Shown one piece after another: positions 3,841 to 36,455 of a stretch of DNA of 64,000 bases. Position 1 is the first letter of the stretch. Every line of letters begins with the position of its first letter. The notes under the pieces are model-generated. The model ran no database searches. It saw nothing but the letters and a program-made list of their open reading frames with translations, and was not told the origin of the DNA. Made by a program: the position numbers and the translations under genes. This DNA is from the human T2T-CHM13v2.0 reference genome, Homo sapiens: assembly GCF_009914755.1 (NCBI RefSeq), contig NC_060925.1. One strand, written 5' to 3'.

Positions 3841-3985
3841 CAGTCTTTGTATAGACTGTCAAAAATTGTCAGTGCTGACTATGTTGCAAGTCATCACAGT
3901 GGGGTATTGGGAAAATTTTTCAATTAGCAATAGTCATGCCTCAGATAAACCTCATTGGCTATGATACTTGCCATTGTGCAAAGCT
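3841..3985 (-). pseudogene. Full-length processed U4 snRNA pseudogene
   Basis: Minus strand reads AGCTTTGCACAATGGCAAGTATCATAGCCAATGAGGTTTATC...TTTTCCCAATACCCC...AATTTTTGACAGTC...AGACTG, matching U4 with CpG decay. A-rich tail at 3808-3834; no snRNA promoter seen. Confidence 0.93.
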
Positions 3986-11639: not shown

Positions 11640-11945
11640 CTCCGCCGCCGGCTCCCGATCTGATTCCTGATCCTTGATTCCTTGATCCTTGGTCCCGCCA
11701 TGGGAGCCTGAGCGCCCCCTATTCCCCCCTGGCCCCCAGCCCCCGGGGCCTTGAGGGGGAAGAGGCAGCGGTCTGGGACGGAGCAGGGGGTGACCAGACT
11801 CAAGAACCCCCCCCTCAACATCCCCCATCGCGCGCGCTGCCTGTCCAGGAGCGCCGAGTTCGGAGCGACCCGGAGCGCTGCGGATACAAAGGCGACGGGC
11901 CGAGCGGGGCGCCCGCGGAGCCCACCCGGCAGTTCGCAGCGGCGG
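11640..11945 (+). other. VANGL2: VANGL2 exon 1 (5'UTR); start position approximate
   Basis: Lies in the CpG island and ends at the consensus donor GCGG|GTGAGT (11945/11946). TSS inferred just after the C-rich GC-box tract. Confidence 0.8.
11700..11711 (+). promoter_or_regulatory. uORF Met-Gly-Ala-stop in the VANGL2 5'UTR
   Basis: cccgccATGGGAGCCTGA; the only ATG in the spliced leader. Confidence 0.7.
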
Positions 11946-17688: not shown

Positions 17689-18125
<437 letters not shown>

Positions 18126-21100
18126 TAAGTAGGGTTTAGATAGGAACAGGTGCTGAGCCCGAAGTGTGAATGCAGTCACTTAAAAAACAACAGACTGTGA
18201 ACAAAAACATGCATTTTGACACCTGCTTTACTTCAGGAATGGAGGTGGCAGATATAAGGGATGGGAGAGTTGAGAATTTTCAGCAAAGAGTGAGAATCTC
18301 AGGTAGGGGGGTGGTCGCGATGGTGGAGGCCGGCTGGTACTTGGGCCTTTCAGCTGGATCTGGTTTTCTAGATAAGAACTGGCCAAGTTGCCAGATCCAA
18401 GGCATTGGGCTGAGGCAACAGGAGGTTCTCAGGATGGGGATACCCAGCCCTGCCACCCTCATCCCCAGTCACACTGCATCTCACACCCTGAGGCCCACTC
18501 TACCACTTTCCTACAATCCAGCCTTTGCTGACAGTGCCCCCATATGTTCTTCCCTCACACTCCATCCTCACAGCTCAACTCTCCCCATCCACAGCAAGCC
18601 CGAGGTTGGCTAACTTCCCCTTCCCAACTAGCTGCTTTTCACATCTTTGCACCCCAGGGCAGGGGCTGGGTGAGCAGGCTTTGAAGGTCTTTTGGGGCCA
18701 GGGACAGTTGGGGCCTACCTCGAGCAGCAGGCTAGGAAGAGGGGGGCATTTGTTTTTGGAGTGTACAGGACACTCACTGACTTACGGGTCAGCACAACTC
18801 ACCCACCTCCCATTGTCCACCCTCTCCCTGAAGACACCTCAAGCTGCCTGCTTTCCTTCTTGGTTCTTCCACAGCTCACCTGGTGGGCAGGTACGGGCCA
18901 GTTCTCTGCCTAGGCCAAGGGAGGAAGCAGCTCAAAGCCTGGTGGTGGAAATTGTGGGGCCTGCCTGTTGGTAAAAATTAAATGGAGAATCCAGAAGCCC
19001 TGGTTGCCTTCCCACCAGCTTAGTGTCCCGTCTTCCCGCCGGCCCCCACCTGGGACAGATGCCAGGGGCATTACTCACCTTTTCTCCTGCAGCCTTTCCA
19101 CCCCCAGTGTTCTCTTCAAGACGGACTAGGAATGGGTCTGGGGAAGGCTAGGGAATGGGGTGCTATGGGACATGAATGTGCACACGTGTCTGCTTTTGTG
19201 TGCTGTGTTGGGGGGCAGGTACCTTCTGGGAGCTGGGATGGGGGTGGGGGTGCCAGAGAGACAGCGGAGCAGGTCTCTACAGAACCTGCCTAGCCAGGGT
19301 GGGTGGAGCTGGGTGGGGCAGGCAGGAGTGATTCCAGGTTTCAGAGGGGGAACAGAGTGTGGGTGTGTATGCGTATGGGTGGGTATTTTGGTGTGTTTGC
19401 GGATTTAGAGGTCCTCGGCCTCACCCCCAGCCTTAGACTGAGGGAAATTCAGGACGTAGGTGGAGAGGGGCTTGGCTCTGGCTTCCCCAACTGCTTTTGA
19501 GGTAGAATGCAAGCTCAGGTATCCTGGCCAGGAGCCCAGTCTGTGGGCCCTTCCCCTGCGGTGCACCCTGCACTGGGGTCTGCTGGTGAGAAGCTGCTCT
19601 GGAAGCCTAGATGCCTGGATGACACAAGCATGGCCAGGATCCCACCCCTCCTCTGCCACTCAGCCCAGTGAGGAGAAGGATCCTGCCCCCACCCTGGGGC
19701 TATGAGGATGGTGAGCTCATCTCTGGGGCTGTCCTGGGAGAATGCCTGGTTAACAGGGCGGGGGTGGGGCACCTGGTGCCAGCTCCTGGGCTCCCTGCTC
19801 TGCCCTTCCCACCCCTCAGCCCACCAAGATACAGCTGTTCTCTCTGGCCTCCTGGGCAGCACTGTCACCCAAGGACAGCCTTTTTCAGGGTTTAGGAATG
19901 AGGGTCAGGGCAAAATCTTCATCCTATTTTTGGTCCAGGGCTGGAGCTGGTCCTTGCCCACTCTGTACCTTAGTCTTTTCGGTGATAGCAAAAGCCCAGC
20001 CTCTCTGGATGGGTGGCTTGCCCATAGCCCAAGGCTGGATGGGGATGAAGGAACATCAAGGTTCTTAGTTGTGGTAGATGGATGGGTGCAGGAACCACCC
20101 CTTTTGGGGATAGAGGCTCTTTGGTTCTGGCTGTCTTAGCTGAGGCCTGTCTAGTCTCTGTCTCTTTGTCCCTGGTGAGAAGAGGGGGCAGGACGGAGTC
20201 AGCAAATCCTCTCCTGTCGTGGCCCTCTTGCAGTTGTGGCTACTCAAGGAACCAGTGTCCAGAGCAGTCTCATGGAGAAACCTGGTCTCACTCCAAGAGG
20301 AGCACTCCTCAAAGTCAGTGTTACTACGATTTTCCAACAATTAGAGGAGGCCAGAAATGGGCTGCCGTAGAAGTAGTGGCCATGGGCTAGTCACCTTCTC
20401 TCTCTGGGTCCCACTTTTTTATTTGTAAAATTTGAGGTTGTCCCTCTAAGGCCCCTTTCAGCTTGGTGCTGGGAACTGCTGAGAAGAGGGTGGTTCAGCC
20501 AGCTGTGTCCTCCTGAAGGGAAAAGGGAAAGGGAAAGGGAAAGGGGAAGGGGTGTCAGGGGAATGATATGGGCATAGTCAGAGGTTCAGGTACCTTCCTT
20601 CCGTCTGTGGAAGCTGTGTTGGATGTCTGCATTTTCAACCCACACCCATCAACTTCAGCCCCCCACCAGGGCCTGACAGCGCTGCCTGGGTTGAGCACAT
20701 CTGTGAAACTCAGGGGAGGTGTGTGACAAGGAGGAAAACCAAGCAAGGCTCTGAAGTGCGACAGCTGTGTCTCGAGTCTCTGCTCTGCCTTGCACTGGCC
20801 TTAGGCCTTGGTGAGGTACTCTGACTGTACTCTGAGCTAGCACGGAGAGCTAGCTCCTGGGATCCTGGGCTGGGAGGTTGGACCCTGGGCTTAGTTCTTG
20901 CCACCTCCATGGCTGAAGGTGGGCTTCCAGCACTTTGAGTGGAACTTATATTGATATCCTTGGACCTTGGCACTATGGATGGTGATGATTAGGGAGCCAG
21001 GCAGCTAGGGGGTGCCCACATGCATACCCCTGCCCACGGGCTGCAGTGGGAAAGGGGTGCAAGGCATATGCAGGAAGACCCAGGCTCCTGAGTAGGAATC

Positions 21101-24632: not shown

Positions 24633-26769
24633 CCATTTTAGTTTTTAACATAATCAGCCTCTCAGCAGCATTTGACCTGGTTGACTTAATTCCCACCTCA
24701 AAACACTGTTAAATTTCTGGCTGCCTTGAGACCCCACTCTTCTGGCTCCCCTCCTCCTCTGGCCTTCTCATCCCCTTTGCCTGCTCCTTTTCCTCTGGAC
24801 ATGTCTACCTATTGGGGTCCTTTATGTCCATGGAAGAGTTAGGTTTTGAACTCAGCTGGATCTGAGTTCTATCTATCCCCATAGCTTTTCACACACTCAG
24901 TACCTCCAGCTCAGACTGTCCTCCAAGTCTGGCTCGTCTGACACCTGGCTGCCTACTGTCTCATGGCCACTAACTTAGCAGGCTAGAAGCTGAACTAATT
25001 ATCTTCCCTCACAAGGCTGCTTCCTCCCCAGTCTTCCCTACCCTACTGATGGTGCTACCATCTGCTCCCTTGCTCAGGCCGGGGATTCTTAACTCTCCCT
25101 TCCCGCTCATTAGGTCCTGTTGATTTGACCACCAACATTAAGTCTCAAACATGACTGTTACTCACTCTTCTGTGGCTCTACCCTTAGCAAGCCTGTACTA
25201 CTGCAGTCGCCTCCTTATTGATCTCCCTGTTTCTATTTTTCCCTCTTTTCAATCCATATCTGCATAGCTAAAATCCTTCAAAGTTTTCCTGTGGCCTTAG
25301 AATAAAATAAAGCTCAAGCTCTTCACCTGGTGCCTGGCTGTCTCTGCAGTGCCACCTTCTACCACCCACTCTCTTCCTCAACTCTAGCTCCACTGGCCTT
25401 TGTTGGTTCTTTAAATACAACAAGCTCTTTCCTGCCTTTGGCCTTCACACATGTGATTCCTCTGCTCCATGGGCATTTTCCTGCACTCTTTGCTTGGTTA
25501 ATTCCTATTTCTTCTTCAGGCCTCTGCTGAGGTGTCCTTTTCTCAGACTTTCTAGAACCGCTAAGTTTAAAGTGGTAGCCCTTACTCCATGGGTGTCTCT
25601 CATAGTTTGCTGTTCTGCCCTTCCATCATGCCTGCAATCGGTCGTTTATACTTATCTGCTTACTTGTTTGGTGTGCCCCTTCCCTGCTAGACTGTAAACT
25701 CAGGGTCTGTTATACCACTTTATACCTAGCAGAATACATGGTTCATAGAAGGTGCTCAAACAAGATTTGATGCGTCAATGACTGAAGATAGGAAGTAAGC
25801 GCTCGGTGGATGGTGATGGCTGTTAGGGGAGTCAGGGTCAGCAGGGAAGATAACATTGGGTCTAGAGTAGGTGGGGGCTCCTATGAGGGGGTGGGGCCGG
25901 GCTCTGAAGAATGAGCAGGATTTGGGTGGGGGTTAGAGAGAGGAGAGGTCATTCTCCTCTGCAGAATCAGAAGGTGAAGTATGGTTGAAGATAAGCCTAT
26001 AAATAGGCAGATAAACTTGTGCCTTGCCTGTTTCAGAACTTCAGGCAAGTAGAAACTTGTCTTCTCCTCCCATCCCCTACCATATTATCCATAGTTTCCA
26101 CCCCTCACCCTCACCTGGGGCTGTGCATATGTGTGGCAACCTCAAGGAAGCTGCCAGCCTGATCTTACCGGTAACACTGGGTGTGTTTGAAGTAAATGCT
26201 GGGGAGATGGTATCAAGGGAAGCAGCCCACTGTGGGCACACTCAGAAAGTATGAGTGAGGGGAGGAGGTGTAGCATGGGGAGAAGAGGCCTGGGGTAGCC
26301 CCTGGACAGAAGCCCGCTCCTTTCTGCTCTCTGAGGTGTCCACTGATTCAGCCTGTTGGCCTGGCCAGAACCTGCCCTCTTCATGCCTCGGTTTCCCTGG
26401 CTGAGAATAGGGAAGCAATGCCCTGCTCCTCCCTTCCAGAGGGCTTGGGGTTGGGTCATTCTGGGTGAGCCTTCCTGCCCTGGGAGCCTTTGCTGGCCAT
26501 CTTCCCCCATGCCTGAGTCCTTGGCACAGCCTGGCAGGGCTCTTTCTAGAGAAGGGTAGGAGGAACTGGGCCCAGTGGACAGCAGGAACCTGGGTGGAGA
26601 TATTCTCAGGCTATGGCTGGGCTCATTTGAGCCTCCTGTGGCTGTTGTGTGCAGATGGTCTTCCTCTGCCCTGACCCCACAGGGAGCTCGAGCCGCCTCT
26701 AACTAGCTTCTTCCTCTCACCAGGAGCGTCGCTGGATTTTCTCTGAGACAAGCCCACCCGTCCAGCAAA

Positions 26770-26913
26770 ATAGAGTCCCTCAGGGTGACAGTTGACTTCC
26801 TGAAGGTGCCTCTTGGCCTAAAGAAGCCGGTGCTGAAGGAGGTGGCTGTGGGGCCCCCCAAGAGGCCCCAGCCTGCGGCCCTGGAGCGCTACAAGGCGCG
26901 GCGTTCAGACGCC
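26770..26913 (+). CDS. VANGL2: 48-codon non-AUG (AUA) N-terminal extension of VANGL2 (long isoform)
   Basis: aaaATAg at 26770 (A at -3, G at +4), in frame with ATG 26914 and with no stop: (M)ESLRVTVDFLKVPLGLKKPVLKEVAVGPPKRPQPAALERYKARRSDA. Confidence 0.8.

Positions 26914-36455
<9,542 letters not shown>

What the first reader, a model, noticed from the sequence alone, without database searches (positions are those of the whole stretch)
26770..26916. Near-cognate AUA start gives a 48-aa N-terminally extended VANGL2
Seen: ATA at 26770 in optimal context (aaaATAg) lies exactly 144 nt upstream of the annotated ATG, in frame and stop-free. It encodes a Lys/Pro/Val-rich extension (MESLRVTVDFLKVPLGLKKPVLKEVAVGPPKRPQPAALERYKARRSDA), giving 569 aa instead of 521. 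The ORF track misses it because it opens at GTG 26785. Established: non-AUG starts with A-3/G+4 produce extended proteoforms by leaky scanning. From memory, an AUA-initiated 'Vangl2-Long' isoform has been reported, so this may be known although it is missing from the canonical CDS. Inference: the extension lengthens the cytoplasmic N-terminus ahead of the phosphorylated Ser clusters and could alter trafficking. Variants here would be misclassified as 5'UTR in neural-tube-defect screens.
Basis: partly seen in the sequence, partly recalled or inferred. Interest (0 to 1): 0.85.

Follow-up and report, generated by a model that had tools for sequence, protein, structure and literature searches.

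The report
Known AUA-started long VANGL2 isoform
The upstream ATA codon really does open a 48-residue in-frame extension of the VANGL2 protein, but this long isoform has already been predicted, shown by experiment and added to one major gene catalogue, so it is real but not new.

Summary
Every detail of the observation checks out. ATA lies at window 26770-26772 (T2T chr1:159,552,770), with A at -3 and G at +4. It is 144 nt upstream of the annotated ATG at 26914, in frame and stop-free, giving 569 instead of 521 aa.

The open frame alone is not beyond chance: 328 of 2000 shuffles are also stop-free. Conservation makes it real. Eleven bird VANGL2 protein records carry the extension in frame. Residues 1-24 are 19-22 of 24 identical to human, which matches the canonical N-terminus at 21-22 of 23. 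Human VANGL1 has no counterpart.

It is already published. It was predicted in 2011 (PMC3105428). It was demonstrated as 'Vangl2-Long' by western blot, mass spectrometry, loss of the band on ATA-to-GCA mutation, and Xenopus knockdown (PMC11065751). GENCODE has added it (PMC9789052, PMC11317171). RefSeq RS_2025_08 still lacks it: 0 of 4 mRNAs start there.

The journal version has no occurrence of 'Golgi' or 'trafficking'. Verdict: real, correctly interpreted, already known; low interest as a discovery.

The parts
26770..26772 (+). Near-cognate ATA (AUA) start codon of the long isoform; A at -3, G at +4
   Evidence: Published: mutating ATA-144 to GCA abolishes the 70 kD band.
26770..26913 (+). 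48-codon N-terminal extension, in frame with the canonical CDS and stop-free
   Evidence: Third-position GC is 0.79 against 0.80 for the CDS; the other two frames hold 5 and 1 stops. It is the only match in the human genome at E<=10.
26770..26841 (+). Conserved head of the extension (residues 1-24); includes V8 and L11
   Evidence: Human against 11 birds: 19-22 of 24 identical. V8 and L11 are invariant in 12 of 12 sequences. The preprint reports that V8 and L11 are needed for Golgi association.
26842..26913 (+). Variable linker half of the extension (residues 25-48), with a basic stretch just before the canonical Met
   Evidence: Human against 11 birds: 5-11 of 24 identical. Bird extensions are 44-50 aa, with whole-codon length changes.
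26914..26916 (+). Canonical ATG of VANGL2 (context gacgccATGg), start of the major 521-aa form
26724..26984 (+). Exon carrying both start codons (exon 2 of MANE Select NM_020335.3)
11794..11945 (+). Exon-1 part of the same open frame in the MANE mRNA (after TGA 11791). It holds in-frame ATC 11827, CTG 11878 and ATA 11884. There is no evidence that it is translated.
   Evidence: The 342 bp cloned upstream of the ATG in the paper equals this whole open frame, and the ATA-to-GCA change still removed the long band.
11700..11711 (+). Three-codon upstream ORF (ATG GGA GCC TGA) in strong context (cccgccATGg) in the MANE leader, out of frame with the CDS
   Evidence: Its effect on start choice is untested.
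26788..26849 (+). Predicted RNA hairpin beginning 15 nt after the ATA codon (core 26795-26842); its role is inconclusive
   Evidence: The core persists in 4 of 4 folding contexts and the mean pair probability is 0.70. It is not significant: 22 of 200 dinucleotide shuffles and 63 of 1000 synonymous recodings fold at least as well.
26881..26883 (+). In-frame CTG in good context (gcggccCTGg), a candidate minor start that would add 11 aa; untested
   Evidence: A third, intermediate Vangl2 band is reported only in Xenopus.

Best explanation
The stretch is the start of the published VANGL2-Long proteoform.

How it most likely works:
1. Scanning 43S complexes on the VANGL2 mRNA first meet an AUA at window 26770. 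It has A at -3 and G at +4.
2. A minority of complexes initiate there with initiator Met-tRNA. Most scan on (leaky scanning) to the strong-context AUG 144 nt downstream.
3. One mRNA therefore yields a major 521-aa protein and a minor 569-aa protein.

What the extension looks like:
- It is a basic (pI about 10.4) cytoplasmic addition to an N-terminal tail that is already flexible.
- Its first 24 residues form a strongly conserved head. The next 24 are a variable linker.
- The long form co-assembles with VANGL2 and VANGL1 in the same oligomers.

Shown by my calls or by publication: the codon, frame and context; conservation of the protein; dependence of the long band on the ATA; the endogenous protein in human, mouse and Xenopus; knockdown phenotypes in Xenopus.

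Inferred: that leaky scanning, rather than another route, sets the ratio of the two forms; and that the conserved head is a docking or sorting motif.
For: Sequence:
- ATA with A-3/G+4, 48 open in-frame codons, and no in-frame AUG in the MANE leader.
- Third-position GC of 0.79, matching the CDS at 0.80.

Conservation measured here:
- Of 12 hits fetched from the exon search, 4 bird partial VANGL2 proteins carry the extension.
- A region search with one of them found 10 proteins among 14 scored candidates, all birds.
- In the alignment of human plus 11 birds, residues 1-24 are 19-22 of 24 identical, residues 25-48 are 5-11 of 24, and canonical residues 1-23 are 21-22 of 23.
- Ile is present at the ATA position in 12 of 12 sequences. 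Extension length is 44-50 aa, always in frame.

The paralogue lacks it:
- VANGL1 has an in-frame TGA 66 nt upstream of its ATG and 3 in-frame stops in that exon's leader.
- The extension matches only itself in the human genome.

Literature:
- PMC11065751, abstract and sections 4, 6, 7, 10: western blots, the junction MS peptide, ATA-to-GCA mutation, an extension-specific antibody, and Xenopus morpholinos.
- PMC11317171, passages: peptide evidence; ATA with a strong Kozak context conserved in mammals and tetrapods, ATT in some birds.
- PMC9789052, passages: GENCODE added a VANGL2 (AUA) model.
- PMC11698917, passages: VANGL2 residues 1-108 are invisible in the cryo-EM map, so the extension sits on a flexible tail. 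VANGL forms trimers and hexamers.
Against: - The open frame alone is unremarkable (328 of 2000 shuffles are stop-free). It also extends 66 codons beyond the ATA in the MANE mRNA, with other in-frame near-cognate codons.
- From general knowledge (recalled, no call), AUA is among the weaker near-cognate starts. I found no significant enhancer of initiation: the downstream hairpin is no better than 22 of 200 shuffles.
- My own conservation evidence covers birds only. I therefore could not test codon-level selection or where conservation starts upstream of the Lys-Ile.
- No isoform-specific function is established. Either isoform rescued ciliogenesis in the other's morphants. The 'Long' morpholinos also lowered the short form by under 20% and an intermediate band by about 50%.
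- The journal text no longer mentions Golgi retention (0 occurrences of 'Golgi' or 'trafficking').
Confidence: 0.93

Rival explanations
1. The extension is translated, but other in-frame near-cognate codons also initiate, giving further proteoforms. Candidates upstream of the ATA are CTG 26743 and the exon-1 codons ATC 11827, CTG 11878 and ATA 11884. Candidates downstream are GTG 26785, 26806, 26842 and 26848, and CTG 26881.
For: One search lists these codons. CTG 26881 and GTG 26842/26848 have G at -3 and G at +4. Xenopus extracts show a third, intermediate Vangl2 band, which the authors attribute to a start between the AUA and the AUG.
Against: In transfected HEK293T cells, a construct carrying the whole 342-nt open frame lost the 70 kD band when only the ATA was mutated. 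Upstream starts are therefore not major. CTG 26743 has T at -3 and A at +4. No intermediate band is described for human or mouse cells in the sections I read. An 11-aa addition might not resolve on a gel.
Confidence: 0.2
2. The conserved upstream frame acts mainly as a translational control element. On this view, initiation at the AUA tunes how many ribosomes reach the AUG, and the extra 48 residues have no function of their own.
For: Short and long isoforms cross-rescue ciliogenesis in Xenopus morphants. Both localise alike at the plasma membrane in Xenopus. The journal text no longer mentions the Golgi-retention result.
Against: A purely regulatory start would not need amino-acid conservation. 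Residues 1-24 are as conserved between human and birds as the canonical N-terminus (19-22 of 24 against 21-22 of 23). Length changes in the linker keep the frame. The preprint reports that the 48 aa are transferable to Vangl1 and that an L11A change alters localisation.
Confidence: 0.06
3. It is a chance open frame in a GC-rich 5' leader and is not translated.
For: 328 of 2000 shuffles of the 144 nt are stop-free. RefSeq does not annotate it.
Against: Bird conservation. Published western, mass-spectrometry, antibody and mutagenesis data. Independent peptide evidence. The GENCODE annotation.
Confidence: 0.01

Closest known systems
Vangl2-Long (Walton et al., J Biol Chem 2024, PMC11065751; preprint 10.1101/2020.10.20.347385)
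   Same: It is the same object. The start is an AUA 144 nt upstream of the canonical AUG, the extension is 48 aa, and the protein is 569 aa. The junction tryptic peptide begins SDA. V8 and L11 lie in the conserved head.
   Different: Nothing differs in the sequence feature. What I add is small. I give a human-versus-bird figure showing a conserved 24-residue head and a variable linker. I note that the MANE frame is open for 114 codons. I note that RefSeq RS_2025_08 still lacks the CDS.
Conserved non-AUG N-terminal extensions catalogued by comparative genomics (Ivanov et al. 2011, PMC3105428; PMC9789052), e.g. USP19 (AUA) and CCDC8 (CUG)
   Same: The kind of feature is the same: an in-frame near-cognate start upstream of the annotated AUG, with a protein-coding conservation signature. 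VANGL2 is named in these lists.
   Different: In the list of 30 human genes given non-AUG models, AUA is written for only 2, VANGL2 and USP19. Most use CUG.
PTEN-Long and L-VEGF (extended proteoforms with changed localisation; named as parallels in the preprint)
   Same: In each case an N-terminal extension from a non-AUG start is proposed to change where the protein resides (preprint discussion).
   Different: For VANGL2 the localisation effect appears only in the preprint, with tagged overexpression. It is absent from the journal version and was not seen in Xenopus tissue.
VANGL1 (human paralogue)
   Same: The exon layout at the start is the same, with 71 coding nt in the ATG-bearing exon. 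The canonical N-terminus is similar.
   Different: There is no extension. An in-frame TGA lies 66 nt upstream of the ATG, and that exon's leader has 3 in-frame stops. The VANGL2 extension finds no second match in the genome.

Membership tests
Non-AUG-initiated N-terminally extended proteoform (alternative initiation by leaky scanning) | A near-cognate codon upstream of the annotated AUG, in frame, with no intervening stop | tested here: met
   ATA 26770; 48 open codons up to ATG 26914.
Non-AUG-initiated N-terminally extended proteoform (alternative initiation by leaky scanning) | Favourable context at the near-cognate codon (purine at -3, G at +4) | tested here: met
   agcaaaATAg, with A at -3 and G at +4.
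Non-AUG-initiated N-terminally extended proteoform (alternative initiation by leaky scanning) | No in-frame upstream AUG that could account for the extension | tested here: met
   The MANE leader has one uATG (11700). It is out of frame and opens a 3-codon uORF. In the Gnomon model XM_054337806.1, the one in-frame uATG (19619) is closed by TGA 19703.
Non-AUG-initiated N-terminally extended proteoform (alternative initiation by leaky scanning) | Protein-level conservation of the extension in other species | tested here: met
   In 11 birds, residues 1-24 are 19-22 of 24 identical to human and the frame is kept despite length changes of 44-50 aa. Conservation in all vertebrates is from PMC3105428 and PMC11065751, not tested here.
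Non-AUG-initiated N-terminally extended proteoform (alternative initiation by leaky scanning) | Direct evidence of translation from that codon (start-codon mutagenesis, peptides, initiation profiling) | not testable with these tools
   Published: the ATA-to-GCA change removes the 70 kD band, and a junction peptide and an extension antibody exist. Peptides are also reported in PMC11317171. I saw no initiation-profiling data.
Vangl2-Long as defined in PMC11065751 | AUA at -144, a 48-aa extension giving 569 aa, and a junction peptide with SDA before the canonical Met | tested here: met
   compared.
Regulatory upstream ORF (uORF) | A separate reading frame that ends before the main CDS or overlaps it out of frame | tested here: not met
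   The frame is continuous and in phase with the CDS.
Curated cis-regulatory RNA family (e.g. an IRES or other Rfam element) | A match to an Rfam covariance model at gathering score | tested here: not met
   The whole window has 2 matches: U4 at 3844-3985 and an SRP/Alu-like match at 17986-18102. Neither is near 26770.
Known protein domain in the extension | A Pfam match, or look-alikes in the Atlas | tested here: not met
   Pfam finds 0 families for the 48 aa and for the 71-aa exon product at E<=1. The Atlas gives no usable hit.

The most novel reading that the evidence does not exclude
The isoform itself is published, but my evidence leaves room for an undescribed layer of control and function.

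1. The extension may be a two-part module. The 24-residue head, which is near-invariant between human and birds and has alternating hydrophobic residues around V8 and L11, would be a transferable docking or sorting motif held on a variable linker.
2. The ratio of long to short protein may be set by features of the leader:
- the 3-codon strong-context uORF in the MANE first exon;
- choice of first exon, because in the Gnomon model XM_054337806.1 two uORFs run across the AUA and end at 26793, which would favour the short form;
- a hairpin that begins 15 nt after the AUA.
3. Human cells may also make a third proteoform from CTG 26881 or GTG 26842/26848, like the intermediate band in Xenopus.
Probability: 0.2. 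Interest if true: 0.4.

Novelty: already known. Interest (0 to 1): 0.12.

Why it matters
VANGL2 is a core planar-cell-polarity gene, and its loss causes severe neural tube defects. A second, conserved proteoform means that 144 nt labelled as 5'UTR in RefSeq and MANE Select are coding. Variants there, including changes to the ATA itself, should be read as missense, start-loss or frameshift changes.

N-terminal tags knocked in at the AUG may also disturb the long form. The JBC authors make this argument for a tdTomato-Vangl2 mouse.

All of this is already in print and in GENCODE. The practical residue is an annotation gap in RefSeq RS_2025_08. The open question is what the extension does that the short form cannot.

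Tried and rejected
1. Protein search with the 86-aa in-frame product of the exon (26725-26984). There were 2 candidates and none scored; 38 candidates without a named source were left out. The length window of 47-150 aa makes this blank uninformative.

2. Reaching full-length long forms in other vertebrates. This was not possible because no single-exon reference is long enough. The best query (317 aa) capped hits at 554 aa, and only birds were returned. This says nothing about fish, frogs or mammals.

I therefore ran no codon-level (PhyloCSF or dN/dS) test and no covariation test for the hairpin.

4. A hairpin as an initiation enhancer. The idea that a hairpin about 14 nt downstream helps weak starts is recalled from Kozak's work, not from any call. 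The predicted hairpin at 26788-26849 is not significant. Its z-score is -1.40, with 22 of 200 shuffles folding at least as well. Against synonymous recodings, 63 of 1000 were as stable for the hairpin and 32 of 1000 for the whole extension. A fixed window from +16 to +65 after the ATA folds more weakly (-9.3 kcal/mol) than the leader average (-15.2), because it cuts the hairpin. I leave this as inconclusive.

5. Pfam, the Atlas and Rfam gave nothing at this site.

6. Solved structures. The VANGL2 chains (9jk7, 9jka) start at the canonical Met after a short tag. Residues 1-108 are invisible in the map in any case.

7. A chance open frame was considered and rejected (see the rival explanations).

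8. Supplements are closed and I did not ask for any. The following could bear on the claims and were not seen:
- the JBC supplementary figures and tables (antibody specificity, MS tables, morpholino blots, rescue);
- the table and alignments of PMC3105428;
- the peptide lists of PMC11317171.
Figure 1G of the JBC paper (a six-species alignment) was seen only as its legend.

9. I made no literature search for published VANGL2 5'UTR variants in patients. On that point I rely on the JBC discussion.

Full report
**The observation.** The window reads agcaaaATAg at 26764-26773. ATA lies at 26770-26772, with A at -3 and G at +4. Translation from 26770 gives 48 codons without a stop that run straight into the annotated Met at 26914. 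The distance is 144 nt. The canonical CDS assembled from the RefSeq exons is 1566 nt, i.e. 521 codons plus a stop, so the long form has 569 residues. Leu, Val, Lys and Pro occur 6 times each in the extension, the pI is 10.36 and the mass about 5.4 kDa. Every factual element of the finding is confirmed. In chromosome terms the ATA is T2T-CHM13 chr1:159,552,770-159,552,772.

**Is it more than chance?** On its own it is not. In 2000 dinucleotide-preserving shuffles of the 144 nt, 328 had no in-frame stop. The ATA is also not where the open frame ends. In the MANE Select mRNA (NM_020335.3; exon 1 at 11640-11945 spliced to 26724) the frame stays open for 114 codons upstream of the ATG, back to TGA 11791. 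It passes in-frame ATC 11827, CTG 11878, ATA 11884 and CTG 26743. That 342-nt frame is stop-free in 169 of 2000 shuffles. Weak intrinsic support comes from third-position GC, which is 0.79 in the extension frame against 0.80 in the CDS. The other two frames of the 144 nt carry 5 and 1 stops.

**Conservation, measured here.**
- A protein search with the 202-aa exon (30079-30684) returned 27 proteins among 168 scored candidates; 1661 candidates without a named source were left out.
- I fetched 12 of these. Four bird partial VANGL2 records begin one residue before the Ile and carry the whole extension in frame.
- I then searched with residues 1-51 of one of them (P0007, whose cluster stands for 17 member sequences). 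This gave 10 proteins among 14 scored candidates, all birds; 17 candidates without a named source were left out.
- In the alignment of the human translation with 11 birds, extension residues 1-24 are 19-22 of 24 identical to human. Residues 25-48 are 5-11 of 24 identical. Canonical residues 1-23 are 21-22 of 23 identical.
- Ile at the ATA position, V8 and L11 are invariant in 12 of 12 sequences.
- Bird extensions are 44-50 aa long, so the length changes are whole codons.
- A duck record (P0032) that is otherwise a mis-model also contains the second part of the extension in frame. I left it out of the counts.

The head of the extension is therefore as constrained as the canonical N-terminus across the mammal-bird split (about 300 million years; recalled, no call). 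The second half behaves as a linker.

Two limits apply. The search could not return proteins above 554 aa and found only birds. I also had no orthologous DNA, so I cannot say which Ile codon the birds use or where conservation begins upstream.

**The paralogue.** Human VANGL1 has the same layout, with 71 coding nt in the ATG exon. It has an in-frame TGA 66 nt upstream of its ATG and 3 in-frame stops in that exon's leader. A six-frame search of the whole human genome with the 48 aa found only the VANGL2 site at E<=10. Pfam finds no family in the extension, the Atlas gives no usable hit and Rfam has nothing at the site.

**What is in print.** A full-text search for 'Vangl2-Long' finds 2 papers: a 2020 preprint and its 2024 journal version.

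- Prediction. Ivanov et al. 2011 (PMC3105428; passages seen) list VANGL2 among 42 genes with conserved non-AUG extensions. [quoted passage not shown]

- Demonstration in cells. Walton et al. 2024 (PMC11065751; abstract and sections 4, 6, 7 and 10 read) report:
  - a 70 kD band beside the 62 kD VANGL2 band in human and mouse cells, both lost on CRISPR editing of Vangl2;
  - a mass-spectrometry peptide with SDA ahead of the canonical N-terminus, which matches my in-silico tryptic peptide;
  - production of both bands from a construct carrying the 342 bp upstream of the ATG, which I find to be exactly the full open frame;
  - loss of the 70 kD band alone when ATA-144 is changed to GCA;
  - immunoprecipitation of the endogenous long form with an extension-specific antibody;
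  - co-assembly with VANGL2 and VANGL1, at an estimated Vangl2:Vangl2-Long ratio of 3:1 to 4:1.

- Demonstration in Xenopus, from the same paper: a junction peptide, developmental regulation, and morpholino phenotypes in axis elongation, neural tube closure, Pk2/Dvl1 asymmetry and centriole polarity.

- Annotation and peptides. PMC9789052 (passages; preprint version) states that GENCODE added a VANGL2 (AUA) model. PMC11317171 (passages) reports peptide support. It describes an ATA with a strong Kozak context conserved across mammals and tetrapods, with ATT in some birds. It notes a UniProtKB 'erroneous initiation' entry and the GENCODE annotation.

- RefSeq. RS_2025_08 has 4 VANGL2 mRNAs in this window, and all 4 start the CDS at 26914.

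**Mechanism.**

*Shown:*
- The long band depends on the ATA.
- The ATA has the two key context positions.
- The downstream AUG sits in a strong context, gacgccATGg.
- The long form is always the minor one.

*Inferred:* leaky scanning. A fraction of scanning complexes start at the AUA and the rest go on to the AUG.

*The protein.* The N-terminus is cytoplasmic (introduction). VANGL2 residues 1-108 are invisible in the cryo-EM map, and VANGL assembles as trimers and hexamers (PMC11698917, passages). The solved chains begin at the canonical Met. The extension is thus a basic tip on a flexible tail, present on a minority of subunits in mixed oligomers.

**What the extension does remains open.**
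- The 2020 preprint reports slower Golgi exit. It also reports that the 48 aa transfer Golgi association to Vangl1, and that V8A and especially L11A reverse it. These are the residues I find invariant.
- The journal version has no occurrence of 'Golgi' or 'trafficking'. [quoted passage not shown]
- Either isoform rescues ciliogenesis in the other's morphants.
- The 'Long' morpholinos also lowered the short form by under 20% and an intermediate band by about 50%.

**What I looked for beyond the literature.**
- A predicted hairpin at 26788-26849 begins 15 nt after the ATA codon. Its core persists in 4 of 4 folding contexts, with a mean pair probability of 0.70 over 22 pairs. It is not significant: 22 of 200 shuffles fold at least as well, and 63 of 1000 synonymous recodings are as stable.
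- The MANE leader has a 3-codon uORF in strong context at 11700-11711.
- In the Gnomon model XM_054337806.1, 8 upstream ATGs occur. Two of them open uORFs that read across the ATA and stop at 26793, which would favour the short form on that transcript.
- In-frame CTG 26881 and GTG 26842/26848 have G at -3 and G at +4. They are candidates for a third proteoform like the intermediate band in Xenopus.

All of these are leads, not results.

**Verdict.** The feature is already known: predicted in 2011, shown in 2020/2024, and present in GENCODE. What remains is a RefSeq annotation gap and the unanswered question of the extension's specific function. Interest as a discovery is low.

Noticed in passing
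window 11700-11711 (+): A three-codon upstream ORF (ATG GGA GCC TGA) sits in a strong Kozak context in the first exon of the MANE VANGL2 mRNA. It is out of frame with the CDS. It may force re-initiation before the AUA and AUG.
   Followed up: partly
window 11794-11945 joined to 26724-26769 (+): In the MANE mRNA the VANGL2 frame is open for 66 codons upstream of the ATA (114 upstream of the ATG), with in-frame ATC, CTG, ATA and CTG codons. The 342 bp cloned in the JBC paper equals this open frame exactly.
   Followed up: yes
window 19331-19710 (+), first exon of Gnomon model XM_054337806.1: This alternative first exon carries 8 upstream ATGs. Those at 19702 and 19708 open uORFs that cross the splice, read over the ATA in another frame and stop at 26793. 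This transcript would disfavour the long isoform.
   Followed up: partly
window 26881-26883, 26842-26844 and 26848-26850 (+): In-frame CTG and GTG codons with G at -3 and G at +4 lie between the ATA and the ATG. They are possible minor starts, comparable to the intermediate Vangl2 band seen in Xenopus.
   Followed up: no
proteins P0003, P0004, P0007, P0016, P0028-P0031, P0033-P0035: All 11 bird 'VNG2A/VANG2 protein, partial' records begin exactly one residue (Lys, once Thr) before the Ile of the extension. The reason is unknown; it could be an annotation-pipeline boundary or an upstream stop in birds.
   Followed up: no
window 31022-31475 (+), Gnomon model XM_054337807.1: An alternative terminal exon would give a truncated VANGL2 that ends after the exon at 30079-30686. 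A rat record of 294 aa (P0001) has a similar truncated form.
   Followed up: no
window 3844-3985 (-) and 17986-18102 (-): Rfam matches a full-length U4 snRNA (95 bits; annotated as pseudogene RNU4-42P). It also gives a borderline SRP-RNA match (71 bits against a gathering score of 70), most likely an Alu-type repeat inside the lncRNA LOC105371466.
   Followed up: no
window 26905-27294 (-): A 129-aa antisense ORF overlaps the first coding exon of VANGL2. It appears only in the mechanical ORF list and there is no evidence that it is a gene.
   Followed up: no
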